From NCBI GenBank assembly GCA_964387885.1, contig CAYLYZ010000012.1, forward strand, positions 6,576 to 70,575: 64,000 nucleotides of DNA. Reading direction: 5' to 3'. The stretch comes from an uncultured bacterium. GTDB taxonomy: Bacteria; Electryoneota; AABM5-125-24; Hatepunaeales; Hatepunaeaceae. Under the pieces are notes generated by a model, which was given only the letters and a program-made list of their open reading frames with translations, made no database searches and was not told the DNA's origin. How positions within the stretch are numbered: position 1 is the stretch's first letter; each line of letters begins with the position of its first letter. Shown here one piece after another: positions 20,893-50,402 of the stretch. Position numbers and translations under genes: made by a program.

Positions 20893-20994
20893 GGAGTGCT
20901 CAAGCCATGCTTGAGCTTTCCAAATGTGTGTTCGACTCGTCGCTCAATTTCAATTTGACTGGACTGGTACGCTCAAGCCATGCTTGAGCACTCC
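20893..20994. repeat. REP family 3: inverted pair of palindromes GGAGTGCTCAAGCCATGCTTGAGC ... GCTCAAGCCATGCTTGAGCACTCC
   Basis: Each half is a palindrome around CATG, and the pair forms a long hairpin. A second copy lies at 54992-55070. Confidence 0.8.
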
Positions 20995-22813: not shown

Positions 22814-23870
22814 TTTAGGGCTGAAGATATTCAGCCCCTACGGGAATATACCCGAATGGAGAGGTGGATTCGCTTATACCGGAAATTTTATCATGTCAGG
22901 GGCAGGAAATGAAAAGCAAGAATTAAATAAATATGAAATACATAAAACGAGCTTCCAATGACTTACAATCCCGAAAAACACCATCGCAGATCCATTCGAT
23001 TGAAGGAATATGATTACTCGAGCGGAGGTGGGTATTATCTGACGATTGATTCGAATAACCGGGAATGTCTGTTTGGTGAGGTGACAAATAAAGAAATGAT
23101 TCCGAATGAGGCCGGTCTGGTTGTTCGTAAATGCTGGTTGGAAATTCCCAGTCATTATCCCAATGTTGTTCTGGATGAATTCATCGTTATGCCGAATCAT
23201 GTTCATGGGATCGTTTTTATTGTTGATGAATCTTCTATGTCAAAACGTAGTAAACGTTCCGTAGGGGCTGAATATCTTCAGCCCTGTTCGAAGAAAAACA
23301 CAGTATCAGGTTTGTCAGGAAATAGGGTTGAAAATATTCAACCCCTACATGGATCGTGTTCGAATACCAATGCGGATTCTGTTTTGCCGGGGAAAAGGGT
23401 TGAAGGTGTTCAACCCAAACTGAATAGGTTTCAGAAGGTTATCCCTGGTTCAATTGGATCTATTGTACGAGGATTGAAAATTGGCGTCACCAAATGGTTT
23501 CGTCAGAACACGGATGTTTATACGGTTTGGCAACGGAATTATTACGAACATGTCATTCGTAACGAACAGGAATTGAACAGCATACGTGAATATATATTGA
23601 ATAATCCGTTGCGATGGGAATTAGACCGGGAACATCCGGATGAATGGGTGATGGGGTGAAAATGGTCAATCCCTGGGTGTAGGGGCTGAAGATATTCAGC
23701 CCTGTTCGAATGGCAATGTAGATTCTCGTTTTTAGGGATTTAGGGCTGAAAATATTCAGCCCCTACGGAATGGTGACGCGGATTCCTGTTTTGTCGGGGA
23801 ATGGGTTGAAGATATTCAACCCCTACGGAATGGCAACACAGATTCCGGTTTGTCAGGATATAGGATTGGG
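22814..23870 (+). mobile_element. REPtron: RAYT gene with cognate REP units upstream (22814-22859), inside the ORF (23262-23420) and as a 3-unit tandem array downstream (23677-23870)
   Basis: 62-nt unit containing a GGGCTGAAGATATTCAGCCC or GGGTTGAAGATATTCAACCC hairpin followed by CTACGGAATGG. Confidence 0.75.
22958..23659 (+). CDS. REP-associated tyrosine transposase (RAYT, IS200/IS605-like Y1 HuH transposase)
   Basis: HuH motif MPNHVHGIVFI. C-terminal WQRNYYEHVIRNEQELNSIREYILNNPLRW matches the RAYT catalytic-Tyr motif. At 233 aa it is ~55 aa longer than typical RAYTs, owing to REP-derived sequence between the two motifs. Confidence 0.8.
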   Translation: MTYNPEKHHRRSIRLKEYDYSSGGGYYLTIDSNNRECLFGEVTNKEMIPNEAGLVVRKCWLEIPSHYPNVVLDEFIVMPNHVHGIVFIVDESSMSKRSKRSVGAEYLQPCSKKNTVSGLSGNRVENIQPLHGSCSNTNADSVLPGKRVEGVQPKLNRFQKVIPGSIGSIVRGLKIGVTKWFRQNTDVYTVWQRNYYEHVIRNEQELNSIREYILNNPLRWELDREHPDEWVMG

Positions 23871-23961
23871 TACCCACCCGGGAAAATAAAACACATCTGT
23901 TGTAATCCTGTTATATTCTTTGTATCGTTTCTTGTATAAACAAAATTATGAAGGAGCACTC

Positions 23962-25248
23962 ATGGATACATTCGACCGCCTCTTGCAGTACATCAATTCT
24001 CTCAATATTATCGACACTCACGAGCATCTTGGATTCGAATCTGACCGGGTTAAGGATGAGGATGTGTTCGAGGAATGGTTGGAGCATTATTTCTCTTGTG
24101 ACCTGCATTCCGCGGGATTATCAGAAAAGGAATTAGGCTTTGTCAGAGATAGCTCAAAAGATATTCACGAACGCTGGAAAAAAGTTGAACCTTACTGGCA
24201 TGCTGCGGAATCTACCGGATATGGGAGAGCACTCTCGATTGCAGCTCGGGATATTTATGGGATCGAATCGATAAACTCAAATACAATAGGTGAGTTGAAC
24301 GATAGATTCAGGGACGCTAAAGAAAAGGGTGGTCATTACGACAATGTGCTAAAAGGAAAATCGAAAATTGATCTCTCTATTGTCGATTCTATGCCGATTC
24401 CTTACCGTGAACCACCACATCCATTTGTGTTTACGCTACATACAAACATCTTTTTACTGACGAATCATATCAATCAATTGAGGGAAACGGGTGCAGTGGT
24501 TGATATGAGTGTACATACTCTTTCGGATTGGATGGATGTTACCCGCAAGTATATTGAAAAATTCATAAATGGGAAATCAAGAGTCGTCTGCCTGAAGAGC
24601 TCAATTGCCTACGAGAGAAGTCTTCGATTTGATAAGGTAACCTATGCGGAAGCTGAAAAGGCTTTTAATGAACTCTTCGAGGACAGGAACTTAGCAAAGT
24701 ACCGTCCGACTGTGAAACTTTCCAAGGTTTTTTCTGACTACATGATGCATTTCATATGCAAAGTAGCGGATGACAACCGCATACCGTTTCAGATTCACAC
24801 TGGAATTCAGGAGGGAACAGGTAATATTATTTACGACTCAAATCCGACACTCCTAAGCAATCTTTTCCTTGAATATCAGAATGTGAAATTTGATATTTTC
24901 CACATGGGTTATCCTTATGTAATGGAAATGGGAACTCTTGCCAAAAATTTCCAAAACGTCTTCCTCGATATGTGCTGGGGGCATATTATCAGCCCGGAAG
25001 CCGCTCGACGCGCCTTGATTGAATGGCTGGATGTTGTTCCCGCAAATAAGATTCATGCATTCGGCGGGGATTACTGCTTTGTAGATGGTGTTTACGGGCA
25101 TCAATACCTCGCCCGCAGGAATGTAGCGTTTTCTCTGGCATATAAGGTTAACGACGGTTCGATAAGTATTTCGCGAGCGGAAGAGATCGCAAAATGGATG
25201 TTTCGTGATAATCCGATTGAACTGTTCAAGCTGGAGAGGTTTTTGTAA
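23962..25248 (+). CDS. amidohydrolase-family (TIM-barrel metal-dependent hydrolase) protein
   Basis: AAGGAG RBS. IDTHEHL metal-binding motif near the N-terminus, plus C-terminal H/D residues. Substrate unknown. Confidence 0.6.
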   Translation: MDTFDRLLQYINSLNIIDTHEHLGFESDRVKDEDVFEEWLEHYFSCDLHSAGLSEKELGFVRDSSKDIHERWKKVEPYWHAAESTGYGRALSIAARDIYGIESINSNTIGELNDRFRDAKEKGGHYDNVLKGKSKIDLSIVDSMPIPYREPPHPFVFTLHTNIFLLTNHINQLRETGAVVDMSVHTLSDWMDVTRKYIEKFINGKSRVVCLKSSIAYERSLRFDKVTYAEAEKAFNELFEDRNLAKYRPTVKLSKVFSDYMMHFICKVADDNRIPFQIHTGIQEGTGNIIYDSNPTLLSNLFLEYQNVKFDIFHMGYPYVMEMGTLAKNFQNVFLDMCWGHIISPEAARRALIEWLDVVPANKIHAFGGDYCFVDGVYGHQYLARRNVAFSLAYKVNDGSISISRAEEIAKWMFRDNPIELFKLERFL

Positions 25249-25274
25249 GTGGTAATTCCACTTTTTCAAAAGGT

Positions 25275-25375
25275 AACATACTTTCCGTAGGGGCTGAAAA
25301 TCTTCAGCCCTGTTCGAATGGGAACACGGATTCAATTTTGTCGGGAATTAGGGTTGAATATTTTCAACCCCTACA
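25275..25375. repeat. REP (RAYT-cognate family), 1.5 units
   Basis: CCGTAGGGGCTGAAAATCTTCAGCCCTGTTCGAATGG ... GGGTTGAATATTTTCAACCCCTACAG. Confidence 0.8.
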
Positions 25376-29647: not shown

Positions 29648-32098
29648 ATGAAATTTCTATTAATCCTCTCGATTCTCTTTTTGTATGTAGGTAACTCTTT
29701 TTGTGCTATCATCAATGTACCTGATGATGTTGAAACAATTCAGGCGGGGCTGGATCGTGCAGGGGAAGGTGATACGGTAATTGTCGCAAGGGGCTCCTGG
29801 TTCGAGAATCTAACTATCCGTCGAGACTTAGTGTTAGCCGGGAATTTCATTCTATCAAACCAGAAATCTATAATCCGTGACACTGAAATCATCGGTGGAC
29901 TCAACTTTGTTGAAGAACTAACCAACGACACCGAGATTGTTGGGCTCCATTTTACAGGTGGGGATCGTGACCGAGGCGGTGCGATGGAAATTTCGAATTC
30001 ATATCCAAGAATCTCACATTGTTTGTTCACGAACAATACTGCTCCAAGAGGAGGTGCCGTCTACTGCGGATCACACTCCAATGATACACTACAAACTGTC
30101 CAATTTTTCGACTGTCACTTCGAAGGGAATATCGGTTCCTGGGGTGGTTGCATTGGTATTAACGGAAGTAATGTCGACATCGAAAGTTGTACATTTGTCA
30201 ATAATACCGGTTCTTGGGGTGGAGCTATTCACGTAGGGAGTAATCGCGGTCACAGACTCAACGTCATCAATTGTTCTTTCGAGCGGCACGTTGCCGGATG
30301 GGGTAATTCAGCGAGGATCAATGAAGGGAGAAGTTTTTTTATTAACTGTATTTTTGCACAAGAAACTGGAGACGAAGCACTCATGGTCGGCAGTCGCGGA
30401 GATCACTTCATTGACCGTTGCACTTTCACAGAGATAACCGGAACGCCGATTTTTTTCAGTGGACATCAAGGTGGAACAGGAATTATCAGACGATGCTATA
30501 TCCATGACAACACCGGTTTAGTATTATTTCTCGATTATTGTGACAGCTTGCAGCTTGAAGACTGCGATATAAGTTCTAATTGGAACGATGGGGGAGGGAT
30601 TATTAGAATCCATGTCGGAGTTCCAGTACTAACAAATTGCAGAATATACAATAACGTAAATGCAAGACGACACTCTCTTCACGGTATCTTGAGCCTTGAA
30701 TGGCATGATCACGGCGCGATTATAGATGGATGTTTGTTTTTCGGAAATGAAGCAGCGGAGGGAGGAATTATTGATGTAGAAGATCGCGCCAATGTTGTGA
30801 TTAACAAAACGACTATTGCCAACAATGTCTGCGAGAACTCGATTATTCTAACCGGAAGCAGCCATCTCGACATTTCAAATTCCATCCTTAATGCGGTTGA
30901 TAATCAGAATGATTTATCAATTGCCTCTGATACTGTTCATGTCTCCTATTCCAGGATAGAAGCGGAAAGGATCAATGTCAGGGGCAATGCGGGGTTTGTT
31001 AATCTGGACGATGGGATATTCGAAGATAATCCGGGATTTGTTGACCCGGAAAACTCTGATTTCCACTTGACGTCAGAAAGTCCCTGCATTGATAACGGTG
31101 ATCCGGAATCTCCTTTCGATCCTGATTGGAGCAGAGTTGATGTTGGAGCTTTTTATTGCGATGAAGAAGCCAATATTGAAGTCGCCCCAAAAATATTGAC
31201 ATTCATCGATATTGAAGCGACCACGATTGACAGTCAACAGGTCTTAATCAGCAACTATGGTATGGAAACGCTGCATATCGAGGAATTTGAGATTGATGGA
31301 AGTGAGTGCTTCACGTTACAGCCTGATCAAGAGGTGTTTGATCTGGAACCGTTTGCTTCGGAAGCAATTTGGGTACGCTATAATCCTGACTTTCGGGGCG
31401 AGTTCCGCGCAGAGCTGATAATCCACTCAGACGAACGAGACCAGCCGGATTTCAATCTTCTTTTGATGGGCAACAGTCGGATAACACCGGTGTTGACTAT
31501 TGCGCCTGAAGACTCCTTAGAATTTGTTGATATACTTATTGGTGTCGAAGATAGTATTGAAGTTGTGTTTTCTAATCCCGGTCTTGAGTCAATAAAGATT
31601 CAAGATGTCTGGATTCGGCCCAATCGCTCTCCTTTTACTTTAAGTGGCCCAGAGCCTCCATTTAAAGTATATCCCGATTCTATTGTGATATGCCGGGTAT
31701 ACTTCAGTTCGAGGAGATTTGATGAATTTGTGGCCTTTCTTGTCATTGACTATAATGATAATCCCACCGAGCGGATCACAATTCCAATTCACGCAAACAC
31801 TTCCAATTCAGTTGATGAAACGGGCGACCTTCCGCTCAAATTCTCGCTTGAGGAGGTTTACCCCCAACCGCTTAATGGTATTGGTAGTATAAACTTCACA
31901 CTTCCCATTATCTCGGACATAAGCTTGAAGTTATATGATAATCGAGGTAGACATATCAAGACATTGGAAGAGGGTACATTTGAGCATGGTGAACACTCCG
32001 TACTGTTTAATGCCACAATTTTCCCGGCCGGAGTTTATTTTGCACGATTGGAAGAGACTGGAAAAACATGCAGTAGAAAGATAGTTATCGTTAAATAA
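29648..32098 (+). CDS. secreted right-handed parallel beta-helix (pectin-lyase-fold) protein with T9SS CTD
   Basis: Signal peptide present. Repeated beta-helix coils such as NNTAPRGGAVYCG, NIGSWGGCIGINGSN and NNTGSWGGAIHVGSN. The C-terminal ~80 aa is CTD-like and ends ...RKIVIVK. Confidence 0.7.
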   Translation: MKFLLILSILFLYVGNSFCAIINVPDDVETIQAGLDRAGEGDTVIVARGSWFENLTIRRDLVLAGNFILSNQKSIIRDTEIIGGLNFVEELTNDTEIVGLHFTGGDRDRGGAMEISNSYPRISHCLFTNNTAPRGGAVYCGSHSNDTLQTVQFFDCHFEGNIGSWGGCIGINGSNVDIESCTFVNNTGSWGGAIHVGSNRGHRLNVINCSFERHVAGWGNSARINEGRSFFINCIFAQETGDEALMVGSRGDHFIDRCTFTEITGTPIFFSGHQGGTGIIRRCYIHDNTGLVLFLDYCDSLQLEDCDISSNWNDGGGIIRIHVGVPVLTNCRIYNNVNARRHSLHGILSLEWHDHGAIIDGCLFFGNEAAEGGIIDVEDRANVVINKTTIANNVCENSIILTGSSHLDISNSILNAVDNQNDLSIASDTVHVSYSRIEAERINVRGNAGFVNLDDGIFEDNPGFVDPENSDFHLTSESPCIDNGDPESPFDPDWSRVDVGAFYCDEEANIEVAPKILTFIDIEATTIDSQQVLISNYGMETLHIEEFEIDGSECFTLQPDQEVFDLEPFASEAIWVRYNPDFRGEFRAELIIHSDERDQPDFNLLLMGNSRITPVLTIAPEDSLEFVDILIGVEDSIEVVFSNPGLESIKIQDVWIRPNRSPFTLSGPEPPFKVYPDSIVICRVYFSSRRFDEFVAFLVIDYNDNPTERITIPIHANTSNSVDETGDLPLKFSLEEVYPQPLNGIGSINFTLPIISDISLKLYDNRGRHIKTLEEGTFEHGEHSVLFNATIFPAGVYFARLEETGKTCSRKIVIVK

Positions 32099-32207: not shown

Positions 32208-32311
32208 TCGTACGGGCACGTTGCTACGTGCCATTTTCCCCAGCAAAACTCACCCCAACGTAAAAACCTTATACACTAACTCTCCCGTACGGGCAATTCA
32301 CGAATTGCCCC
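32208..32311. repeat. REP family 4, upstream pair: CGTACGGGCACGTTGCTACGTGCC and CCGTACGGGCAATTCACGAATTGCCCC
   Basis: Two hairpins sharing a CGTACGGGC prefix. Their inverted partners lie at 34926-35015. Confidence 0.75.
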
Positions 32312-32394
32312 ACAACTCAAGCACCTAATCTTTACAATCCCCCAATTCTTTGTTACATTTCCATTATTATAATATGTTGACAATAGGAGGAAAT

Positions 32395-34899
32395 ATGTCT
32401 GATCCTGTTACAGTCGGTTCAGTTATTGGAAAGATTCTTGTAGGAGTAGGTTCGAAATTATTACCAGATGTTCTCAAGGAAACATGGGAGAAAGCTCTTT
32501 CCAAATGGGAAGAAAAGGATTATCAAAAAGCGGCAGATAGATATGCCAAACATCTCCTCGAACTTCATGGCTACATTCACGTCATTGCGTTAAATAAAAG
32601 AATGAGGCTTTCGAGTGCTTATACCGATGTCAATGTACTATCCAGAATCACTACTGATTATCCTGCACCTAAAGAATTCGCTGAAGCAGTTTACCTGGAT
32701 AAAGCCAAATTCGGAGATATTACAGAGGGAGGTGAACGAAAGGATGGCTTGGATTTAATCCGTAAGTATAATAAACACTTCATACTTGGCAAACCAGGCG
32801 CAGGTAAAACTACTTTTCTTAGATATCTATTACAGGAAGCTATACATGGCAGGTTATTTCAAGATGAAGGCAAACAGGTAATTCCGATTTACGTCGAATT
32901 AAATAAGTTCTCGGAATCAGATTTATCTTTGATTGATTATATGGCAGAGCAATTTGATATTTGTCAGTTTCCTAATGCAAAGCCCTTTATTGAAGTCATC
33001 CTCTCCGAAAATAAGGCATTTATTTTGTTTGATGGTCTCGATGAAGTTGGGGAGCAGAATAGACACGATGTAATCACGCAAATATCCAAGCTCAGCGATA
33101 AATACACGGATTGTCATTTCGTGGTTACTTGCCGAATCGCTGCTACGGATTATGCCTTTCAGCGACACGGTTATACATACATCGAGATGGCAGATTTCAG
33201 CGGTATGCAAATTACAAAGTTCGTGAAAAACTGGTTTCGAACCTCGGGTGAAGAAATAAAATCAAACGAATTCCTCAACGAGTTTAACAAATCCGAAAAT
33301 AAGAGACTTCGCGAATTGGCAAAAACACCGCTTTTACTCGCAATGATGTGCCTCCTTTACGATGTACACCAAGCTTTTCCCGAGCGGCATGTTGAGGTAT
33401 ATGATCAGGCAATAGATGCTCTTCTTTACAAGTGGTGGGGAGAGAGGGGTATCAAACACGAAGAAATCTACCGAAACCTCGATCTGGGTCGTAAAAAACA
33501 AATGTTCGCCAAAATTGCAGCAAAGAATTTTGAAAAGGATCGGTTTCTTTTTCCTCAAGATCACCTTCAAACTGAAATTGTAGAATACCTTAGAAAAATA
33601 CCACCAGAAAATACTTACGAGAGTATTGACGGACAGACTGTTCTGAAGGCAATCGAGATGCAGCACGGGATTTACATTGAACGCGCAAATGGATTTTATT
33701 CTTATAACCATCTTTCGTTTCAAGAGTATTTTACAGCTTTTTATATTCACGAGCATGCTCTTCAAGGTTCACTAGAAGAACTTATAAAACACCACTGGCA
33801 GGAGGATCGTTGGAGGGAGGTATTTCTCAGGACAACCGAGAAGATGGCGAACGCAGACAAGTTTTTTGAGATTTTCCAGAATACATTGGATGAATATGTC
33901 ACTAATAATGAAAGAATTCAAAGATTTATAATTTTCACTAATAGTTTTAATCAACTCAATTTCCCGTCTCCTCCTCTGTTACATAAAAGCCTGCTTAACT
34001 CAATTATTGTTATTCTATCAACTTCATATGCCTATAATCTTGTCGAAGCCATTAAGTTCTTTTTCTTTCAAAGACGCCTTTTTAATCGCGAAATGAATGA
34101 ATACAAAGATGAATGTATAAGTAACTTAGAACGAACTCTCAGTTTCGATACGGACATCAACTATACTATCAAACACATACAAGAAATCGCCAGTACTTTC
34201 AGTGTTGATTTCTCCAACGATTTCAATTCCAATTACATCAATACCCAAAACAGGGATACCGACCATACCAAGATCATAGAATGTTACCTTAAATTAGGTG
34301 AAAGCATCACCCTAGTTCAGGCTCTCGACCAAGCCATCGCCTTTAAATATGATCAAGACCTTGGTTTAACATGGACATATCCTCTTGACCAAGCCCTAAA
34401 CCTAGACTTTACTCTAATCCGTACCCTTGCCCTCGTCCACACATTTATCAACACACTTTCTGAAGGTTTCGATCTAAACCTTTGTCAGCAAATATCTGTA
34501 TACATTAACCAGGTCAATCGAGTTGCGAAAGATAATGGATATAGCGAAATTCACAAAGAATTGGACGGTTTGATCAGAGATATCCCATCAGAAGAATATT
34601 TACCTCAACCAGTGTGGAGAGATGATGATGGATGGGATGACGGATACGGGGGCAGCTTAACATTAAAAAGAGATTTGAGCAAAAAATGGAAGAAGTTTGC
34701 TGATTTGTTAGAAAGCGTTTTCAGGAATCATCGACCGGTACATGAATATGAGTTCAAAAAAGGAGAAGCTGCATCTCTTGGAACATACCTGAAAGGAGTA
34801 AAACTCTTCCTCGACTGCCTCGAGGTCGCCTACGTCGAAGACCGCGAAGGAATTAAAAATCGGTTGTTCAGGGTGCCGGAGGAGGGAAAGCAGGTGTAG
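32395..34899 (+). CDS. NACHT-domain STAND NTPase (NLR-like; candidate antiphage bNACHT/Avs-type protein)
   Basis: GGAGG RBS. Walker A GKPGAGKTTFL and Walker B ILFDGLDEV. Downstream HFVVTCR sensor-1-like segment. A ~470-aa helical C-terminal region. Glycine-zipper N-terminus GSVIGKILVGVGS. Confidence 0.8.
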   Translation: MSDPVTVGSVIGKILVGVGSKLLPDVLKETWEKALSKWEEKDYQKAADRYAKHLLELHGYIHVIALNKRMRLSSAYTDVNVLSRITTDYPAPKEFAEAVYLDKAKFGDITEGGERKDGLDLIRKYNKHFILGKPGAGKTTFLRYLLQEAIHGRLFQDEGKQVIPIYVELNKFSESDLSLIDYMAEQFDICQFPNAKPFIEVILSENKAFILFDGLDEVGEQNRHDVITQISKLSDKYTDCHFVVTCRIAATDYAFQRHGYTYIEMADFSGMQITKFVKNWFRTSGEEIKSNEFLNEFNKSENKRLRELAKTPLLLAMMCLLYDVHQAFPERHVEVYDQAIDALLYKWWGERGIKHEEIYRNLDLGRKKQMFAKIAAKNFEKDRFLFPQDHLQTEIVEYLRKIPPENTYESIDGQTVLKAIEMQHGIYIERANGFYSYNHLSFQEYFTAFYIHEHALQGSLEELIKHHWQEDRWREVFLRTTEKMANADKFFEIFQNTLDEYVTNNERIQRFIIFTNSFNQLNFPSPPLLHKSLLNSIIVILSTSYAYNLVEAIKFFFFQRRLFNREMNEYKDECISNLERTLSFDTDINYTIKHIQEIASTFSVDFSNDFNSNYINTQNRDTDHTKIIECYLKLGESITLVQALDQAIAFKYDQDLGLTWTYPLDQALNLDFTLIRTLALVHTFINTLSEGFDLNLCQQISVYINQVNRVAKDNGYSEIHKELDGLIRDIPSEEYLPQPVWRDDDGWDDGYGGSLTLKRDLSKKWKKFADLLESVFRNHRPVHEYEFKKGEAASLGTYLKGVKLFLDCLEVAYVEDREGIKNRLFRVPEEGKQV

Positions 34900-34925
34900 G
34901 TTGGAAGTTTCGGATACTTGCAAAA

Positions 34926-35015
34926 GGGGCGATTCGTGAATCGCCCATACGGTTAGAGAGATCACCACCCCCCCCAAAAAAAAAAGCAAGGGCACGTGGC
35001 GACGTGCCCCTACGG
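34926..35015. repeat. REP family 4, downstream pair in inverted order (GGGGCGATTCGTGAATCGCCCATACGG ; GGGCACGTGGCGACGTGCCCCTACGG)
   Basis: Reverse complements of the upstream pair. Likely also serves as a bidirectional terminator between the NACHT and tricorn genes. Confidence 0.75.
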
Positions 35016-35039: not shown

Positions 35040-38000
35040 TTACGGCAACTTCAAACTCGGCCTGCCCTTCTTCAAATCAGGAACCTTAAACGGATTCTTC
35101 TTAATCTCCGCCAGAACTTCCTTAATTCCCCGATCCATCTGCGGGTCTTTACCGGCAGCGTAGTCCTGCGGTTTGATTTCGACTTCGATATCAGGATCAG
35201 TGCCGTAGTTTTCTACACCGTAGCCGACGTCAAAGAACCAGTTTGAGAACTCGGGTTGGGTGGTTATTGTGCCATCGACGAGAGAGTTGCGTGGCCAGAT
35301 GCCTATTACACCGCCCCACGTTCTGGTGCCGATTAACTTGCCGAGCTTCAGCATTTTGAAGCCGTGCGAGAAGATGTCGCCGTCTGATCCGGCTGCTTCG
35401 TTGGTCAGGGCTACCATCGGTCCGCGGGGAGATTCGTTTGGTTTGGGGGATTGTCCAAACCATCTTGTTTTTGAATAACCGAAACGTTTCCGGGCGAGTT
35501 TTTCGAGCAATAATGGGGAAACGTGTCCACCTCCATTTTGGCGAACATCGATTATCAAGCCTTCATAATCAAACTCCGCGAGGAAATACCTGTGGAATTC
35601 TGAGTATCCGACCGGTCCCATGTTCGGGATATGTACGTACCCAACCTTGCCTTTGGTTTTCTTGTGGACATATTCACGGTTTGCCTCAACCCAATCACGG
35701 TACCAATGTGAGGTTTCAGCAGCAACAGGCTTTACAACAACTTCTCGAGGTTTCTTGTCACCTTTACTCTTCACTTCCAGTCGGACTTCTTCTCCAACGA
35801 GATTCAACAAAGCTCTGTGAGGATGATTATCCCAGGTCAGTTTTTCACCATTAATACTTATTAAAAGAGTTCCCGGTGAAACATTCACGCCCGGCTGTCT
35901 CAGTGGAGGAGGTGATGCACTCACCCATGTATCACCATTAGCAACTCGTGTAATCTTCCAGGACTTCTTTCGTTTATCATACTCAAAATCAGCACCGAGG
36001 AAACCGATCCTGTAATTGGGGTGGGATCGATAGTCACCACCAAGTTCATAAGCATGCGAAGTTCCGAGCTCTCCCTGCATCTCCCATAATAAATCGGAAA
36101 ATTCTGCACGAGCTCCGACTCTTTCGATAAGAGGCAAGTAGCGATTATACACTCTTTTCCAATCGATCTCCGACATGTTCTCAGCCCAGAAATAATCACG
36201 CTGCAACCGCCATGCTTCAGCGTACATCTGCCGCCATTCTGCAACCGGGTCGATGGCTACTTTTAACCGAGAAAGATTTATCCAACCGCTTTTGCGGTTC
36301 GTTTTCGGATCGGCGGGAAGTTTCACTGTTGTCTCACGAGTAGCATCAACAACCCGTAATTTGTATCCCTTCTGATATACTAATGCTGCTTCATTTGAAG
36401 AGATGCTGAAGTTGGTGATTCCGGATTCAAAAACACTCTCTTCGTTTTTATTCAAATCATATACCTTCAACACTGCTTTTGCAGGTGGTGTATTGTCAAA
36501 AATATCCCTGCCAAGTGTTCCCTCAACCTGATATGCTGTGTAGAAAACTCGCTCTTTTGTCGCTTCGATCGTCCCATATAAACCTTCCGCAACCGGGAAT
36601 GGAATCACTCGATCTTTAATCCCGTCAAAATCTATTTCAACTACGACCTCTTCATCACCGTTTGATCCTTCTTTTTTATCATCACCATTCTGATTCATCC
36701 CAAAACCTTTTGGCTCTGGTATAAAAGGAGACTTCTGGTCTTTCTTAAGAGTAATCAGGTACGGCTTATCACCTCGCGGGAAGTTGTAATCAAAGTGCAT
36801 ATTATCAAAGACAGGGTTAAATATGCGTGTCGATCTAAAATAGATGAATCGACCCAGGGGATCAAAGACCGGGAATGCATCAAACAGCACCGGATCTGTC
36901 AGGTCTTCAACTTTTCCGCTCTTGAGGTTGTATATTCTGAGTATTACCTGCTGACTATTAATTGAAGTCCCATAAGCAATCCACTGCCCGTCAGGTGACC
37001 AGCTGTAACCCTGGATAGGCGCATATTTACTCTGGTCAATAACCTTAGTAGTTGACTTTTTCAAATCAACCACCAGAATTTCATGCCGATGATTCACTAC
37101 ACAGATGTGACTACCTTTAGGTGAGACTTCGAGCCAGGATGGACGACCGATATCTATTTTGTCATAGACCTTAGGTTTCTTCTCACCTTTTACATTGTGG
37201 ACTTCAAGGTGATCCTCACCATTTTCATCACTTACCAAAACAACTTCTTCGTCATTAGGCATCCATGTAATCAAACGGTACCGCACACCTTGCTTCGAGC
37301 CGTGTTGAGTTACCGGACCTTCCCAGTCTCCGAATGTGAATGCTTTGCCTCTTGATATTACACCGAGTGAACTGCCTTCTGAATTTATCGAGTAGTGTTC
37401 GAGGTATCTGGCTGTCGGAACGAATTTACGCTGTGCTTGAGCTCTTGGTGTGGAATACTCAATATCGATCTTTGAAGCTTCGTTCGTTCTCAGATCATAA
37501 TGATATAGATCGGCACCATGCTGGTAAACGATTGAATTCCCATCGGTAGAAGTGTTACGAGTGTAAAATTCTTTGTGCTGTGTAAGTTGTTTCAGGTCAG
37601 AACCGTTTGGTTTACTGGAGTAAAGATTCCCTATTCCATCATCGTCAGAGATAAAATAGATTCTATCTTCAATCCACATAGGTGAAGCAATGTTGCCTTT
37701 CAACATATCGAGCGACTTGAAATTTCCCTTTCCCGTCAAATCAACCCAGAGGCGACCATCTCTTCCACCCTTGTATCGCTTCCAGCGCGCTGAGTCACCC
37801 GTATTGCGTCCGATAAGTATTCCTTTTTCACCGAAAGCAACATGCATAGCAGGCCCAAAGGGAAGCTTCTTTATTTCATGTGTTTCCGGATTGATGGAGT
37901 AGAGCTCAAATATTCCAAGAAATGCCTGTCCTGCGACGCTCGCGAAAATAATGTTCTTTTTATCCCAACCCACTACGTGACACATGCTACCCATGTATGT

Positions 38001-38252
38001 CAGCCGTTCTGCCTCTCCACCTTCTGAGGGCATACGATAGATTTCGGGAGCTCCTTCATCGGTGCTGAGGAATGCTATCCACTTTCCATCCGGTGAAAAT
38101 TGAGGAAATCCGATGCCACCCACCTGGGATGTTATTCGAACTGCACGTCCACCTTGTACCGGCACCTCCCAGAGATCACTTTCTGAAACAAAAACCACTC
38201 TGTCGTAATGTACTGTGGGAGTTCTGTAGTAACCTTGCTGTCTATTAGCCAT
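35040..38252 (-). CDS. tricorn protease homolog (beta-propeller, PDZ, S41 peptidase)
   Basis: 1070 aa. The N-terminus MANRQQGYYRTPTVHYDRVVFVSESDLWEV is diagnostic of tricorn. The C-terminus has an S41-like region. Confidence 0.9.
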   Translation of the reverse strand: MANRQQGYYRTPTVHYDRVVFVSESDLWEVPVQGGRAVRITSQVGGIGFPQFSPDGKWIAFLSTDEGAPEIYRMPSEGGEAERLTYMGSMCHVVGWDKKNIIFASVAGQAFLGIFELYSINPETHEIKKLPFGPAMHVAFGEKGILIGRNTGDSARWKRYKGGRDGRLWVDLTGKGNFKSLDMLKGNIASPMWIEDRIYFISDDDGIGNLYSSKPNGSDLKQLTQHKEFYTRNTSTDGNSIVYQHGADLYHYDLRTNEASKIDIEYSTPRAQAQRKFVPTARYLEHYSINSEGSSLGVISRGKAFTFGDWEGPVTQHGSKQGVRYRLITWMPNDEEVVLVSDENGEDHLEVHNVKGEKKPKVYDKIDIGRPSWLEVSPKGSHICVVNHRHEILVVDLKKSTTKVIDQSKYAPIQGYSWSPDGQWIAYGTSINSQQVILRIYNLKSGKVEDLTDPVLFDAFPVFDPLGRFIYFRSTRIFNPVFDNMHFDYNFPRGDKPYLITLKKDQKSPFIPEPKGFGMNQNGDDKKEGSNGDEEVVVEIDFDGIKDRVIPFPVAEGLYGTIEATKERVFYTAYQVEGTLGRDIFDNTPPAKAVLKVYDLNKNEESVFESGITNFSISSNEAALVYQKGYKLRVVDATRETTVKLPADPKTNRKSGWINLSRLKVAIDPVAEWRQMYAEAWRLQRDYFWAENMSEIDWKRVYNRYLPLIERVGARAEFSDLLWEMQGELGTSHAYELGGDYRSHPNYRIGFLGADFEYDKRKKSWKITRVANGDTWVSASPPPLRQPGVNVSPGTLLISINGEKLTWDNHPHRALLNLVGEEVRLEVKSKGDKKPREVVVKPVAAETSHWYRDWVEANREYVHKKTKGKVGYVHIPNMGPVGYSEFHRYFLAEFDYEGLIIDVRQNGGGHVSPLLLEKLARKRFGYSKTRWFGQSPKPNESPRGPMVALTNEAAGSDGDIFSHGFKMLKLGKLIGTRTWGGVIGIWPRNSLVDGTITTQPEFSNWFFDVGYGVENYGTDPDIEVEIKPQDYAAGKDPQMDRGIKEVLAEIKKNPFKVPDLKKGRPSLKLP

Positions 38253-44510: not shown

Positions 44511-44607
44511 CAGTAGCGTAGGCGTCCCTGCCTACGAAAACGTCTGGGGCGTTTTTTCCTGCATTCTAACACTTCTCAAAAGTATTTTCGTATAGATACT
44601 TACGATG

Positions 44608-46055: not shown

Positions 46056-46132
46056 GTTTCGTAGGGCGGAATCTCATTCCGCTGGAAAGTTAATCTACGG
46101 TAGGTTATTGTCGGGATGAGATCCCGACCTAC
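46056..46132. repeat. REP family 2 full unit (GTAGGGCGGAATCTCATTCCGC ... CTACGGTAGG ... GTCGGGATGAGATCCCGACCTAC)
   Basis: Two hairpins per unit. Confidence 0.8.
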
Positions 46133-46268
46133 TTCATGGAGGTAATATCAAACACCTCCAACACAATCATTATATCACTTGTTTTCTTTACATAATTATA
46201 TTACAATTTGTTAGTTTCAATTATGAAACATTAGAAATTATCTGGAAATTCAATATTAGGGAAAAACG

Positions 46269-46460
46269 ATGGCATTAAATGTTGAAAATCGAGATGACCT
46301 TTTGCCGATTTGTCCACATTGCAAAAAGGATATTGACAAAGTTTATGCACGGGATCTGAAAAATGATATTATTGGTAGTCGAAGAATCATTTATTTCTGT
46401 CCCCATTGCCGAGCCAGTCTTGGAGTCTCGCATCGAAAGGGATTTTTCCTGGGATTATAG
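46269..46460 (+). CDS. small zinc-ribbon protein (CPHC-x23-CPHC), hypothetical
   Basis: 63-aa ORF flanked on both sides by REP family 2 units. Weak RBS. Confidence 0.3.
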   Translation: MALNVENRDDLLPICPHCKKDIDKVYARDLKNDIIGSRRIIYFCPHCRASLGVSHRKGFFLGL

Positions 46461-46466
46461 GAAACA

Positions 46467-46543
46467 GTTTCGTAGGGCGGAATCTTATTCCGCCGAACAA
46501 TTATTCTACGGTAGGTTATTGTCGGGATAAGATCCCGACCTAC
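46467..46543. repeat. REP family 2 full unit
   Basis: Near-identical to 46056-46132. Confidence 0.8.
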
Positions 46544-46608
46544 GCAATTGCTACTGAGGAAAAGGGGCACGGGCATCGGGTCCCTACAATTCAAAACAAG
46601 AGTTGAAG

Positions 46609-48402
46609 TTACAGTAAAAACATCAAACACAAATAGATAACAACTGGGATTGTAATCAAACCCACAGGGTAAATACTCCTGTGAATGCTGCGTCTAATGA
46701 CTGCCCTGATTGAATCGCGGGAGTCTTTATTGAAACCGGAAACTACTAATACCGGTGTGATACTGAAATTAACAGCGTTTGCGATCCCTGCCTGAGCGAA
46801 AATGTTGACTCGACGTGTGATCCCACCGATGAAGACTCGGTCAGCTACTTTGTTAAAATTGTTGAAACCCCAGTCTGTGATCCTGTAGAACAATTTTCCA
46901 CCTTTGCGGTAGAACCAGTCGAAATCGAGATTTGTTGCTCGAATTTCTGCCGGGTGCAAACCTGAATAGGTGAAAAATACAAATGCTAATGCTGCGAACA
47001 GCAGAAGTTGTAATTGACCGACCACGTGTGCGGCAGTATATGGCACATAATCAACTACGTATGGGAGAATGTTATAGAGGAATTTCGGAAAGATTCCAAT
47101 AAAAACACAGAAGAAGGCTGCAATACCCATTGCGATTAACATGTTCAGAGGTGGCTCCTTCACACGAATTCCAGAGTCTTTCCCAAAGAAAGCGAAGAAC
47201 GGAACCTTTATCCCTGCATGATGAAGTACGCCTGCTGAAGCGAATTGGAGAATTAACCAGATTACGACGAGGTGTTCATGTCCGGAAGCACTAACTATCA
47301 TCGACTTGCTAATGAAACCGCTGAAAAGTGGGAAGGCTGAAATAGAGGCGGCTCCGATTATGCAGAATAATGCCGTCAATGGCATGGTTTTGTATATCCC
47401 ACCCAGATCAGTACACTTTACCTTGCCCGTCATCTGCAGAACACTTCCAACTGACATGAAGAGCAGAGCTTTGTAGAGGATATGGGAGAATGCATGTGAC
47501 ACTGTGCCGTTGAGGGAGAGCTCTGTCCCTATGCCAATGCCGACCATCATGAAGCCGACCTGATTCATCAAACTGTATGAAAGGACGCGCCTGAGATCGT
47601 TTTCTATTACAGCAAAGAATATCGGGAATATCGTCATAATCGCGCCGAGCCAGACCAGTAACTCTGTGCCAGGAAAAGTCCTCGCCATGAGGTAAACCGC
47701 GCTCTTGGTGGTCATTGCACTTAAAAAAACAGCACCGGTAACGGTAGCATTGGGGTAGGCATCCGGTAGCCAACCGTGTAGCGGTGGAATTGCAGCGTTA
47801 ACGGCTATCCCGAGGAAAATCAGCCAGGAGGATAAGCCATTTAGACCGATAAAAGAGAATTCGGTTGTTCCACGTTCATGGATGTACATCATTATTCCAG
47901 CGAGCAGAATCAATCCGCCAACTATGTGAACCAGCACATATCGGTATGCAGCGCGTTGTGATTCTTTTGTCCGATTGGCGAGGACCAGGAAAGTCGAACA
48001 GACTGACATAATCTCCCAGAATATGTACAGGCTGAACACATCTCCTGCAAATGTTACCCCGAGTGCTCCTCCGGCATAGCAGAGAGCTGCGATGTGCTGG
48101 ATGTCATCCTTGACCTTCAGCGCGAAAAGGACGCCAATGAACGATATCAGGGTGAAGATATAAGCAAAAACGAGACTGAGCTTATCGACACGGTTCAGAA
48201 CAATGTCGAAGTCATGAATGACAAATGCACACGATTTCCCTTCCGGCAGGCTGAGAATGACCACATAAACCAGTACTGGCAGGAGCAGCATGTAGACTTG
48301 CTTCAGCTTGCCTTTGATGAGTGGCAGAAGCAACGCACCAACAATGAAAATTGCTGCCGGTGGGAGATTACTCATCATAGTATTTCTCATCACGCTTGAC
48401 AA
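46609..48402 (-). CDS. Mrp antiporter subunit A-like / NuoL-family proton-pumping subunit (no C-terminal MrpB-like extension)
   Basis: 597 aa, polytopic, with conserved complex-I antiporter-like segments. Confidence 0.75.
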   Translation of the reverse strand: MSSVMRNTMMSNLPPAAIFIVGALLLPLIKGKLKQVYMLLLPVLVYVVILSLPEGKSCAFVIHDFDIVLNRVDKLSLVFAYIFTLISFIGVLFALKVKDDIQHIAALCYAGGALGVTFAGDVFSLYIFWEIMSVCSTFLVLANRTKESQRAAYRYVLVHIVGGLILLAGIMMYIHERGTTEFSFIGLNGLSSWLIFLGIAVNAAIPPLHGWLPDAYPNATVTGAVFLSAMTTKSAVYLMARTFPGTELLVWLGAIMTIFPIFFAVIENDLRRVLSYSLMNQVGFMMVGIGIGTELSLNGTVSHAFSHILYKALLFMSVGSVLQMTGKVKCTDLGGIYKTMPLTALFCIIGAASISAFPLFSGFISKSMIVSASGHEHLVVIWLILQFASAGVLHHAGIKVPFFAFFGKDSGIRVKEPPLNMLIAMGIAAFFCVFIGIFPKFLYNILPYVVDYVPYTAAHVVGQLQLLLFAALAFVFFTYSGLHPAEIRATNLDFDWFYRKGGKLFYRITDWGFNNFNKVADRVFIGGITRRVNIFAQAGIANAVNFSITPVLVVSGFNKDSRDSIRAVIRRSIHRSIYPVGLITIPVVIYLCLMFLL

Positions 48403-48613
48403 TAAACCGCAGTACCACCGAAACGATGATCAAAATTACATATGACACGAAGCCGTATGCTGAGTAAAAGTTGACCTTATCCTCCCACGGGAAATAGCCG
48501 TGTTTAGGGACGAAAAAGTCAATCCCAACCAGCAAGCCGAGCGCGATATACAAAGACCAAACCAGTATCTTTATGTTGCGCGGATTGTCAAATATTTTGA
48601 ACTCTTTCTTCAT
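48368..48613 (-). CDS. small 2-TM membrane protein within the mrp cluster
   Basis: 81 aa. Overlaps the start of the downstream gene by 35 nt, suggesting translational coupling. Confidence 0.4.
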   Translation of the reverse strand: MKKEFKIFDNPRNIKILVWSLYIALGLLVGIDFFVPKHGYFPWEDKVNFYSAYGFVSYVILIIVSVVLRFIVKRDEKYYDE

Positions 48614-48769
48614 TTAATGCGTTACTAAGCTTCCCTTCTTGTTAGGAAATTAAAGAATAAACGTCAGGATCAAGTATCCTACAGAAATTGCAATGGCTAC
48701 AAACAGCGCGGTTTTATAGCCGGGAACTGCTTCGTGCTCAGTATTGTTATTTTCTTCTGTCACGGTAAC

Positions 48770-50251
48770 CTATCCCCCTGTGTAAGTTTGAACAGCGAGC
48801 TTTGCCAGATTCAAAAACGGCTGTGGGTAAAAGAACAGAAAAACTGAAACCACAGCTGTGAAAACGAGAGGACCTACACACCAGAAGGGAGCCTCCTCAA
48901 TCTTGCGGTCAAACTGAGCTTCTTCATCCGTACAGAAAAAAGCCCTGTATACAATTGGCAGGAAATATGCCGCGTTCAACAGTGTACTTGACAGCAGTAT
49001 AAACAACATCAGTGGCTGATCCGCCTGGAGAGTTCCAAGCAGTATATACCACTTGCTCAGGAATCCACCGGTTGGCGGAAATCCTATCACGCTTAAGGAA
49101 CCGATAAAGAACGCTATCATTGTCACAGGCATCCGTCTACCAAGTCCGACCATCTGGCTGAGGTATTTATGTCCAGTTGCGACAAATATCGCTCCTGCAC
49201 AGAAAAACAGAGTGATCTTTCCGAATGCATGCATCAGAATGTGCAGCATCCCTCCCGTCATTCCCTGTTTTGATAGCAGAGCTGCACCAAGCACTATGTA
49301 TGACAACTGCCCAATTGTTGAGAATGCGAGACGGCGTTTCAAACTGTCCTGAGACAGAGCAACGAGAGATCCTGCTAATATTGTAAATGCTGCCACCCAA
49401 CATAGCGCTGTTCCAAGTTCAAACATTTGCAGGTTATTCACTCCAAATATACCCGTCACCACTCTGAAGATAGAAAATACACCAACCTTGACAACTGCAA
49501 CTGCGTGTAATAGTGAGCTCACCGGAGTTGGCGCAACCATCGCAGCTGGAAGCCATGGATGGAAGGGCATTACCGCTGCTTTTGCGAATCCGAAGATGAA
49601 CATAAAAAATAGAACCGACATCAAGCCCTTAGACATCCCAGCCGAGAGTATCCCGGAATTGGAAAACTCAAGGGTTCCGGTAATGTTGTATATTATCAAC
49701 ATCGCAGGAAGCACCAGTCCGATTGACGATCCGAGGATGAATGTCAGGTATTTCCTTCCGGAAGCTCGGGCTTCAGCATCCTGATGATGTGTGACTAACG
49801 GGAATGTAGCCAGCGACAATATCTCATAGAACAGATATAATGTGAACAGATTGGCAGCAAACGCAACCCCGATAGTCCCGGATAATGCAAGGGCGAAGAA
49901 ACAGTAATATCTTGTCTGGCTGTGCTCTTTTAAACCGCGCATGTAGCCGATTGAGTATCCAGTGGTGACTATCCATAATGTCGAAGATACCAGGGCAAAC
50001 AGGAGCCCCATTGCATCAACCCGGAATTTGAGCGCAACACCGGCAACAACCTCGACTAACTGGTATTCGATAACAGATCCCTTCAGGACCAACGGTACCA
50101 TTGAACCGACTATTACCAGCTTCACAATACCCGCGAGGAATGACCAGCCTTCGCGAACGTTAGGGTGTTTTCGGGAGAGTAATATCGGGACTACTACAAG
50201 CATAGAAGTCAGGACTGCCAGAAATGGTTTTATGGATGTTACTGTATCCAT
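48770..50251 (-). CDS. Mrp antiporter subunit D-like (NuoM/N family), copy 2
   Basis: 493 aa antiporter-like subunit. Confidence 0.75.
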   Translation of the reverse strand: MDTVTSIKPFLAVLTSMLVVVPILLSRKHPNVREGWSFLAGIVKLVIVGSMVPLVLKGSVIEYQLVEVVAGVALKFRVDAMGLLFALVSSTLWIVTTGYSIGYMRGLKEHSQTRYYCFFALALSGTIGVAFAANLFTLYLFYEILSLATFPLVTHHQDAEARASGRKYLTFILGSSIGLVLPAMLIIYNITGTLEFSNSGILSAGMSKGLMSVLFFMFIFGFAKAAVMPFHPWLPAAMVAPTPVSSLLHAVAVVKVGVFSIFRVVTGIFGVNNLQMFELGTALCWVAAFTILAGSLVALSQDSLKRRLAFSTIGQLSYIVLGAALLSKQGMTGGMLHILMHAFGKITLFFCAGAIFVATGHKYLSQMVGLGRRMPVTMIAFFIGSLSVIGFPPTGGFLSKWYILLGTLQADQPLMLFILLSSTLLNAAYFLPIVYRAFFCTDEEAQFDRKIEEAPFWCVGPLVFTAVVSVFLFFYPQPFLNLAKLAVQTYTGG

Positions 50252-50274
50252 TTATGTTCTGTTTTGCTTCCTTT

Positions 50275-50402
50275 AGTAGGGCGGGATCTTATCCCGCCGT
50301 AATGGCTATCATATCTTGTCGGGTTAAGAACCCGACCTACGTGACTTATCCCGCTGTTTTACCACCATGTTCATTATTTGTCGGAATAAGATTCCGACCT
50401 AC
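50275..50402. repeat. REP family 2, 1.5 units between the two mrpD-like genes
   Basis: GTAGGGCGGGATCTTATCCCGCC ... GTCGGGTTAAGAACCCGACCTAC ... GTCGGAATAAGATTCCGACCTAC. Confidence 0.8.

What the first reader, a model, noticed from the sequence alone, without database searches (positions are those of the whole stretch)
32208..35015. NACHT STAND NTPase gene bracketed by mirror-image pairs of REP-like hairpins
Two hairpins sharing a CCGTACGGGC prefix sit 185 and 85 nt upstream of the NACHT gene: GGGCACGTTGCTACGTGCC, then GGGCAATTCACGAATTGCCC. Their reverse complements occur in the opposite order 27 and 90 nt downstream: GGGCGATTCGTGAATCGCCC, then GGGCACGTGGCGACGTGCCC. The whole arrangement is A-B-[gene]-B'-A'. 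Bacterial NACHT proteins are established antiphage effectors, and defense genes are often mobilised. An NLR-like gene packaged between inverted repeats suggests a discrete mobilisable or regulated unit. It could be a MITE-like cassette, or paired transcription/mRNA-stability elements on both sides.
Basis: partly seen in the sequence, partly recalled or inferred. Interest (0 to 1): 0.7.

Follow-up and report, generated by a model that had tools for sequence, protein, structure and literature searches.

The report
Ordinary REP hairpins flanking NACHT gene
The four hairpins around this NACHT gene are real, but they are ordinary GTAG-type REP repeats sitting behind the stop codons of the two neighbouring genes, so they do not mark the ends of a mobile NACHT cassette.

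Summary
Four 8-bp-stem, 4-nt-loop hairpins with a CGTAn head lie at 32209-32232 (+), 32286-32310 (+), 34927-34951 (-) and 34990-35014 (-). They flank a NACHT gene at 32395-34899.

The cassette interpretation is not supported:
- **Known repeat class.** The hairpins belong to the GTAG-tagged REP class. The 75-kb contig holds about 25 such hairpins in about 10 intergenic gaps, and a RAYT-like transposase gene lies 9 kb upstream.
- **Downstream pair without NACHT.** A related genome (tricorn protease 81% identical) has no NACHT gene. It still carries the same A'-then-B' pair, starting 26 nt after the tricorn stop exactly as here. A' plus its T10 run is a textbook intrinsic terminator for tricorn.
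- **NACHT without the downstream pair.** Another relative (tricorn 84% identical) has an orthologous NACHT at the same place. There the gap to tricorn holds a RAYT-like gene with a different kind of repeat.
- **Orientation rule.** At 10 of 11 gene ends in the window, the first REP within 150 nt has its tag next to the stop codon. The one exception is NACHT itself. The mirror image therefore follows from the opposite orientations of the two outer genes.
- **Local clustering.** REP types cluster locally, and same-type REPs bracket at least four other genes.

The finding is ordinary and of low interest.

The parts
32209..32232 (+). Hairpin A: a REP with a degenerate tag (CGTAC), a 7-8 bp stem GGGCACGT/ACGTGCC and loop TGCT. 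It starts 111 nt after the stop of the T9SS beta-helix gene, with the tag nearest that stop.
32286..32310 (+). Hairpin B: a REP with tag CGTAC, a perfect 8-bp stem GGGCAATT/AATTGCCC and loop CACG. It is in tandem (head-to-tail) with A.
32331..32359 (+). Promoter-like site (TTTACA-17-TACATT, with TG before the second hexamer) followed by AGGAGG and the ATG. It lies downstream of B, so A and B probably sit outside the NACHT transcript. This is a consensus match only.
   Evidence: sequence
32395..34899 (+). NACHT STAND NTPase gene (834 aa), with the NACHT domain at aa 129-282 and a sub-threshold NCH2 match at aa 763-826. It is orthologous to P0002 of a Calditrichota MAG, apart from an unalignable block at about aa 500-760.
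34927..34951 (-). Hairpin B': a REP with tag CGTAT, stem GGGCGATT/AATCGCCC and loop CACG. It is the second hairpin behind the tricorn stop. The hairpin is 20/20 identical in the relative that lacks NACHT.
34976..35014 (-). Hairpin A' (tag CGTAG, stem GGGCACGT/ACGTGCCC, loop CGCC) together with the T10 run at 34976-34985. This is the intrinsic terminator of the tricorn gene. It starts 26 nt after the tricorn stop, as in L006.
29648..32098 (+). T9SS-sorted beta-helix protein gene, whose 3' flank carries A then B.
35040..38252 (-). Tricorn protease gene, whose 3' flank carries A' then B'.
22958..23659 (+). RAYT-like Y1 HUH transposase gene with HVH and YYEH motifs. It is flanked by C-type REPs and also contains them.
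22818..25374 (.). Cluster of eight C-type REPs (GTAGGGG[C/T]TGAA-nnnn-TTCA[G/A]CCC), including three 90-nt doublets with the tags outward. They bracket the RAYT gene and an amidohydrolase gene.
46061..50402 (.). D-type REP doublets at 46061+/46132-, 46472+/46543- and 50276+/50340-, plus 50402-. They bracket a 63-aa CxxC ORF (46270-46461) and two larger genes.

Best explanation
The four hairpins are GTAG-tagged repetitive extragenic palindromes (REPs). This repeat class is spread by, and co-inherited with, REP-associated tyrosine transposases (RAYTs).

They form two tandem 'stop codon, then A, then B' modules. One lies behind the + strand T9SS beta-helix gene. The other lies behind the - strand tricorn protease gene. 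NACHT simply sits between these two outer genes, which point towards each other, so the modules look like mirror images.

A' with its T-run terminates tricorn transcription. The other hairpins most likely act as 3'-end terminator, insulator or RNA-stability structures, or are inert relics.

A and B look alike on both sides because REP subtypes in this genome spread only to neighbouring intergenic gaps. The unit A-B-NACHT-B'-A' is not a transposable cassette.

Shown here: the class of the hairpins, the orientation rule, conservation of A'/B' without NACHT, an NACHT orthologue without A'/B', and the terminator anatomy. Inferred: the function of A, B and B', and local copying as the origin of the upstream pair.
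For: 1. **REP anatomy.** Each hairpin has a GTAn tag directly 5' of an 8-bp G+C-based stem with a 4-nt loop. This matches published REP definitions (PMC3733652; PMC6006769).
2. **Abundance.** About 25 such hairpins lie in about 10 intergenic gaps of the contig, against 0.4 in shuffles. The generic pattern occurs 11 times against 0.19 expected.
3. **A RAYT-like gene is present.** The ORF at 22958-23659 gives NF047646 E=3e-15 and carries HUH and Tyr motifs.
4. **Downstream pair without NACHT.** L006-L011 (tricorn 81% identical, no NACHT) carry the A' hairpin 18/20 identical and B' 20/20 identical. Order, strand and the 26-nt offset from the tricorn stop are the same, while the spacer has diverged.
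5. **NACHT without the downstream pair.** In L004/L005 (tricorn 84% identical), a NACHT that is 55% identical overall, highly similar over aa 20-500 and the last ~70 aa, sits beside tricorn. A RAYT-like gene and a different kind of repeat replace A'/B'.
6. **Terminator.** A' has a 12-bp stem followed by T10 on the tricorn strand. The folds are stable.
7. **Orientation rule.** I tallied by hand the REP coordinates against the gene calls. At 10 of 11 gene ends with a REP within 150 nt, the first REP has its tag next to the stop. The one exception is NACHT followed by B', which becomes regular if B'/A' belong to tricorn.
8. **Local clustering.** REP types are spatially clustered: 14 of 21 neighbours are of the same type, and none of 100,000 permutations reached that. 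Same-type REPs also bracket the RAYT gene, an amidohydrolase gene, a 63-aa ORF and an aldo-keto reductase gene.
9. **Literature.** GTAG REPs lie mostly just downstream of ORFs, between unidirectional or convergent genes (PMC3733652).
Against: - A-type and B-type stems occur only at these two sites in the 75 kb available, in the same A-then-B order. The two pairs are therefore related by descent, and I could not show how the upstream pair arose.
- Tandem (head-to-tail) REP dimers are reported as rare in other genomes (PMC3733652).
- The T9SS gene has no orthologue in the databases. The ancestry of the upstream pair could therefore not be tested.
- The upstream flank of the NACHT orthologue in L004 is missing because the contig ends.
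- No whole-genome census of the source organism was possible.
Confidence: 0.8

Rival explanations
1. NACHT was inserted into a pre-existing REP cluster, or recombined into it. On this view the cluster was a nested doublet with tags outward (A B | B' A') between convergent genes, and REP clusters act as landing or recombination sites for a variable defence gene next to tricorn.
For: - Tags-outward orientation is the usual REP dimer form, and DNA inserted between dimer partners has been described (PMC3733652).
- A and B types are found only here in 75 kb.
- Synteny with L006 ends exactly after B'.
- The tricorn 3' flank differs in all three related lineages.
Against: - L006 has A' and B' but no inverted partners.
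- NACHT is old at this site, being shared with the L004 lineage at roughly tricorn-like divergence.
- The spacers show no relic of a compact doublet.
- The orientation rule already explains the symmetry.
Confidence: 0.12
2. The 2.8-kb segment is a mobilisable cassette, either MITE-like or REPtron-like. The inverted REP pairs serve as ends that a RAYT or another transposase cuts, with NACHT as cargo.
For: - The arms are inverted repeats of 27-30 nt, 83-89% complementary.
- A RAYT-like gene is present in the window.
- Two independent Logan assemblies break exactly at B'.
Against: - The hairpins occur without NACHT, and NACHT occurs without the hairpins, in relatives.
- There is no target-site duplication and no second copy.
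- The sequence is 100% identical, with a fixed arrangement, in contigs from several JGI, ENA and Logan samples.
- Three of the four tags are degenerate at position 4. Among 140 B-type copies in other genomes, only 6 have C or T there.
- The RAYT's own REPs are a different type (C).
- RAYT-mediated transposition of cargo has not been demonstrated, to my knowledge.
Confidence: 0.04
3. The hairpins are dedicated cis-regulatory elements of NACHT itself, namely a 5' leader structure and a 3' terminator or stabiliser that keep a toxic NLR at low expression.
For: - The hairpins are stable.
- B' lies 27 nt after the NACHT stop and could protect the 3' end of the mRNA.
- Upstream hairpins could block read-through from the T9SS gene.
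Against: - The promoter-like site and the RBS lie downstream of B.
- The T-run of A' is on the tricorn strand, and B' has no T-run on the + strand.
- A'/B' are conserved where NACHT is absent.
- The tag orientation relative to NACHT is the sole exception to the window's rule.
Confidence: 0.04

Closest known systems
GTAG-tagged REP superfamily (Di Nocera, De Gregorio and Rocco 2013, PMC3733652), including REP/BIME and REPIN elements with their RAYT/TnpA_REP transposases (Nunvar 2010 PMC2817692; Bertels and Rainey 2011 PMC3116915; Messing 2012 PMC3479197)
   Same: - An unpaired GTAG-like tag lies directly 5' of a short G+C-rich stem-loop.
- The location is extragenic, just behind stop codons, between unidirectional and convergent genes.
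- Several stem subtypes coexist in one genome.
- Tags-outward doublets about 90 nt long (C and D types) are present.
- A RAYT-like gene is flanked by REPs.
- Compensatory stem changes occur.
   Different: - A, B and B' have GTAC or GTAT instead of GTAG.
- Both pairs are tandem (head-to-tail) heterodimers, an arrangement reported as rare.
- The copy number of each subtype is very low and local, not hundreds dispersed across the genome.
- The host is an uncultured Calditrichota-like lineage not covered by those surveys.
- The cognate RAYT for the A and B types was not identified.
Rho-independent (intrinsic) transcription terminators
   Same: A' has a 12-bp G+C-rich stem and a 4-nt loop followed by T10. 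It starts 26 nt after the tricorn stop and is conserved in the orthologous locus.
   Different: It carries a REP-type GTAG tag and has a near-twin (A) elsewhere. A, B and B' lack a proper T-run.
MITEs and composite transposons carrying cargo
   Same: Inverted terminal similarity flanks a single gene.
   Different: There is no target-site duplication and no conserved sequence beyond the hairpins. There are no other copies. The ends and the cargo are inherited independently in relatives.
Bacterial NACHT/NLR antiphage proteins (bNACHT, EruA-type)
   Same: The protein has a NACHT P-loop NTPase core, a C-terminal helical region that weakly resembles the NCH2 domain (below Pfam's cut-off), and a hypervariable C-terminal region between orthologues.
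   Different: There was no PADLOC hit. Only the NACHT domain matches EruA (39.9 bits against a cut-off of 1000). No recognised effector domain was found, and the defence role is untested.

Membership tests
GTAG-tagged REP | A GTAG (or GTGG/GYRG-type) tetranucleotide lies 0-2 nt 5' of the hairpin. | tested here: inconclusive
   A' has GTAG. A and B have GTAC and B' has GTAT, and the L006 orthologues have GTAA and GTAT. Degeneracy at the fourth base is not among the published variants. It is rare among B-type copies elsewhere: G 122, A 12, C 4, T 2.
GTAG-tagged REP | The basal stem is fully paired over at least 6-7 bp, with a short loop of 2-5 nt. | tested here: met
   B, B' and A' have 8-bp perfect stems with 4-nt loops. 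A has 7 of 8 pairs.
GTAG-tagged REP | The location is extragenic, mainly just downstream of ORFs between unidirectional or convergent genes. | tested here: met
   Both pairs are intergenic. One gap is unidirectional and one is convergent. At 10 of 11 gene ends the first REP is tag-first (my tally).
GTAG-tagged REP | The element is repeated in the genome. | tested here: inconclusive
   At class level there are about 25 copies in 75 kb. The A and B subtypes have only two copies each in that stretch.
GTAG-tagged REP | A cognate RAYT (Y1 HUH transposase) is flanked by the same REP type. | tested here: not met
   A RAYT-like gene is present, but it is flanked by C-type REPs, not A or B. RAYT-like ORFs that carry B-type palindromes exist in other phyla. 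Whether the source genome has one is unknown.
MITE-like or composite mobile cassette | Target-site duplication at the outer ends. | tested here: not met
   The flanks are ..GCATCGAAT|CGTAC and CTACGG|TTATATCG. They share only an off-register ATCGA pentamer.
MITE-like or composite mobile cassette | The whole unit is present or absent as one piece between related genomes, or has other copies elsewhere. | tested here: not met
   A'/B' occur without NACHT (L006-L011). NACHT occurs without A'/B' (L004). There is no second copy in any fetched locus.
Intrinsic terminator (A' only) | A G+C-rich stem-loop is followed by a T-run just after a stop codon, on the strand of the gene. | tested here: met
   The scan reports a 12-pair stem with 7 G-C pairs, a 4-nt loop and T10 on the minus strand. 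It is conserved in L006. Actual termination was not measured.
Bacterial NACHT antiphage protein | A NACHT NTPase domain with Walker A. | tested here: met
   Pfam NACHT E=1.7e-16, with the motif GKPGAGKT.
Bacterial NACHT antiphage protein | A match to a validated defence-system model, or a demonstrated phage-resistance phenotype. | tested here: not met
   There were no PADLOC hits. The EruA model scores 39.9 bits against a cut-off of 1000. The phenotype cannot be tested with these tools.

The most novel reading that the evidence does not exclude
The gap at the tricorn 3' end is a REP-marked recombination hotspot. REP hairpins (A/B here, a RAYT with other repeats in the sister lineage) delimit a slot where an NLR gene and its hypervariable sensor block are exchanged. 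The nested A-B...B'-A' pattern would then be the scar of NACHT entering a tags-outward REP doublet.
Probability: 0.1. Interest if true: 0.55.

Novelty: new member of a known kind. Interest (0 to 1): 0.2.

Why it matters
The main value is as a caution. In REP-rich genomes, any gene lying between a co-directional neighbour and a convergent neighbour will appear 'bracketed by mirror-image hairpins'. That pattern alone should not be read as a mobile defence cassette.

The positive yield is modest. The work extends GTAG-type REPs and a REPtron to an uncultured Calditrichota-like lineage. It shows REP subtypes spreading only locally. It also shows REP hairpins conserved across species as gene terminators while the spacers around them decay.

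Tried and rejected
- **GTDB scan for B-type hairpins.** I intended this as a census of the source genome. It showed only that the B palindrome is pan-bacterial.
- **JGI metagenome scan for an A-then-B tandem.** It returned two contigs from an unrelated organism (L133/L134). It missed the source organism's own JGI contig (L132), so the collection is incomplete for this purpose and the result is uninformative.
- **Orthologues of the T9SS beta-helix gene.** None exists apart from the same organism. The ancestry of the upstream pair could therefore not be tested.
- **Other database searches.** PADLOC gave no hit for NACHT. Rfam found nothing in the region. A literature search for the exact palindromes found no papers.
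- **Full duplication of the A-B module.** I considered this, but the spacers are unalignable. The orthologous A'-B' spacer is equally scrambled between species, however, so an old duplication cannot be excluded.
- **Three more distant NACHT homologues.** Two loci have no REPs at all. One (L146) has unrelated GTAG REPs on both sides, including a tandem pair after its stop, but no mirror relation.
- **Assembly breaks at B' in the Logan contigs.** I considered these as a hint of structural variation, but found no supporting variant in any sample.
Full report
**Observation.** The sequence at 32208-35015 is as described.
- Upstream of an 834-aa ORF (ATG 32395, stop ending at 34899) lie A (TCGTAC|GGGCACGT-TGCT-ACGTGCC, 32209-32232) and B (CCGTAC|GGGCAATT-CACG-AATTGCCC, 32286-32310), both on the + strand.
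- Downstream, on the - strand, lie B' (CCGTAT|GGGCGATT-CACG-AATCGCCC, 34951-34927) and A' (CCGTAG|GGGCACGT-CGCC-ACGTGCCC, 35014-34990).
- The arms are 83% (A/A') and 89% (B/B') complementary. B and B' differ by a compensatory A-T to G-C stem change.
- The ORF is a NACHT NTPase: Pfam NACHT E=1.7e-16, with a sub-threshold NCH2 match (22.8 bits, cut-off 27) at the C-terminus.
- The generic pattern GTAnGGG-N14-CCC occurs 11 times in the window against 0.19 expected.

**What the hairpins are.** All four share one architecture: a CGTAn head, an 8-bp stem beginning GGGC, and a 4-nt loop. The same architecture with other stems recurs through the window.
- Eight C-type copies (GTAGGGGCTGAA..TTCAGCCC) lie at 22.8-25.4 kb, three of them as 90-nt doublets with the tags outward.
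- D-type doublets lie at 46.06, 46.47 and 50.3 kb.
- A tandem pair sits at 20967 and 21027, and a single copy at 44513.
- A further type lies at about 59.1 and 60.4 kb.

In all there are about 25 copies in the 75-kb contig, against 0.4 in shuffled sequence. This is the published definition of GTAG-tagged REPs (PMC3733652; search rule quoted in PMC6006769).

The ORF at 22958-23659 is RAYT-like. It scores NF047646 'REP-associated tyrosine transposase' at E=3e-15 (below the curated cut-off), has a weak Pfam Y1_Tnp hit, and carries the motifs MPNHVHG and RNYYEHV. It is flanked by C-type REPs, so it forms a REPtron. 'REP-like' was therefore a correct call.

**Source and relatives.** The window comes from a metagenome scaffold (SAMN10231913, 75 kb) that is 100% identical in several JGI, ENA and Logan samples. 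The nearest named relative is a Calditrichota MAG, GCA_018676415.1. Three related lineages share the block TldD/PmbA-DnaX-YbaB-tricorn, with pairwise tricorn identities of 81-84%. They differ beyond the tricorn stop:
1. In the window, the T9SS beta-helix gene (+) is followed by A and B, then NACHT (+), then B' and A', then tricorn (-).
2. In L004/L005, NACHT is followed by a repeat, a RAYT-like gene of 199 aa, another repeat, then tricorn. The repeats are a different palindromic type (GAGTACAGGCTTCAGCCTG...), and no A or B hairpin is present.
3. In L006-L011 there is no NACHT. Tricorn is followed by A' and then B', then by unrelated T9SS genes.

**The decisive comparison.**
- In lineage 3 the A' tag starts 26 nt after the tricorn stop, exactly as in the window. 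The hairpins are nearly unchanged: A' is 18/20 identical with the same loop CGCC and the same T-run, and B' is 20/20 identical. The spacer between them and everything beyond B' has diverged. A' and B' therefore belong to the tricorn 3' end and are kept by selection independently of NACHT.
- In lineage 2 the NACHT is a true orthologue, 55% identical overall. The match is high across aa 20-500 and the last ~70 aa, while about aa 500-760 cannot be aligned. Yet the gap to tricorn holds no A'/B'.

The hairpins and the gene are thus inherited independently in both directions.

**Why the arrangement mirrors.**
- A' on the minus strand is a canonical intrinsic terminator: a 12-pair stem that includes the tag, then T10 (fold).
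- I compared the REP coordinates with the gene calls. At 10 of the 11 gene ends with a REP within 150 nt downstream, the first REP has its tag next to the stop codon. At 50399-50402 the tag even supplies the TAG stop, as described in PMC3733652.
- The single exception is NACHT followed by B'. It stops being an exception if B'/A' are assigned to tricorn.
- The upstream neighbour is on the + strand and the downstream neighbour on the - strand. The rule alone therefore produces A-B...B'-A'.
- A promoter-like site (32331-32359) and the RBS lie downstream of B, so A and B are probably outside the NACHT transcript.

**Why the same types appear on both sides.**
- REP subtypes are strongly clustered along the contig. 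Fourteen of 21 neighbouring REPs are of the same type, and none of 100,000 label permutations reached that.
- Same-type REPs also bracket the RAYT gene, the amidohydrolase gene, a 63-aa CxxC ORF and an aldo-keto reductase gene. Bracketing is a general by-product of short-range REP spread, not a property of NACHT.
- How the upstream A-B pair arose is not resolved. It could be a local copy of A'-B', or the relic of a nested tags-outward doublet.
- The spacers are unalignable, but the orthologous A'-B' spacers between species are equally scrambled. An old duplication therefore cannot be excluded.
- The T9SS gene has no orthologues, and the L004 contig ends inside NACHT.

**Further points against an active mobile element.**
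- No target-site duplication is visible.
- No other A or B copy occurs in the 75 kb or in the relatives' contigs.
- Three of the four tags are degenerate at the fourth base. Among 140 B-type copies from other genomes the counts there are G 122, A 12, C 4 and T 2.
- The RAYT's own REPs are C-type.
- More distant NACHT homologues are either free of REPs or have unrelated REPs without any mirror relation.

**Wider context.** The B palindrome (CGTAnGGGCrATTnnnnAATyGCCC) is not specific to this genome.
These came from Clostridia, Cyanobacteria, Chloroflexota, Proteobacteria, Patescibacteria and others.
- Pairing at the degenerate stem position is kept in 138 of 140 copies, and the loops are almost always CAYG or CGCG.
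- In several of those genomes the palindrome lies in frame inside RAYT-like ORFs, just after the HUH motif, and encodes VGAIHESPL. The window's RAYT likewise carries C-type REPs (VGAEYLQP) at the same place.
- I did not find this described in the two papers I checked for it. I report it only as a side observation.

**Verdict.** The feature is real and the region is correctly annotated as REP-like hairpins plus NACHT. The 'packaged mobile NLR cassette' reading is not supported. The hairpins are ordinary GTAG-type REPs serving as, or left over from, 3'-end structures of the two neighbouring genes. This is a new member of a known kind, and interest is low (0.2). The least ordinary reading still open is that the tricorn 3' flank is a REP-marked hotspot where the NLR gene entered or is exchanged. 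I put that at about 10%.

Noticed in passing
window 22958-23659 (REPs at 23261+, 23348-, and a degenerate third hairpin at 23397-23416); also L099, L038, L021, L028: The RAYT-like ORF carries REP hairpins in frame between its HUH motif and its catalytic Tyr, encoding ..VGAEYLQP... RAYT-like ORFs in unrelated phyla carry the B-type palindrome at the same position, encoding VGAIHESPL or VGAIHELP. This suggests the gene harbours a copy of its own cognate REP.
   Followed up: partly
window about 33890-34680 (NACHT aa about 500-760) compared with L004: The orthologous NACHT proteins are highly similar over aa 20-500 and the last ~70 aa (55% identical overall) but cannot be aligned across about 260 aa in between. 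This looks like a swapped or hypervariable sensor block inside an otherwise vertically inherited NLR gene.
   Followed up: partly
L012-L131 (GTDB loci): The palindrome GTAGGGGC[G/A]ATTCA[C/T]GAAT[C/T]GCCC(CTAC) is near-identical across many bacterial phyla. Some loci (L041, L069, L083) hold arrays of 7-10 GTAG hairpins, each with a different stem.
   Followed up: partly
L004 2235-3036: In the sister lineage, a 199-aa RAYT-like gene flanked by long palindromic repeats (TAGAGTACAGGCTTCAGCCTG...) occupies the NACHT-tricorn gap. In the BLASTP alignment to the window's RAYT, Phe (NCFERP) lines up with the expected catalytic Tyr (NYYEHV).
   Followed up: partly
window 46056-46545: Two direct copies of an 80-nt D-type REP doublet flank a 63-aa ORF with two CxxC pairs (46270-46461), inside an otherwise gene-poor 1-kb gap.
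   Followed up: no
window 20967 and 21027; L146 5226 and 5270: Tandem pairs of tag-first GTAG hairpins with different stems also follow other stop codons: a T9SS gene here, and a NACHT homologue in another genome. This 'stop, hairpin, hairpin' module is the tandem head-to-tail arrangement that the literature calls rare.
   Followed up: no
L002 and L003 contig ends (equivalent to window 34951): Two independent Logan assemblies both end exactly at the outer edge of hairpin B'. L003 contains only the NACHT gene and starts 31 nt past hairpin B. The cause is unknown; it could be an assembly-graph branch or strain variation.
   Followed up: no
window 50399-50402: The TAG of a REP tag appears to supply the stop codon of the gene at 50399-51880 (-), as reported for GTAG REPs in other species.
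   Followed up: no
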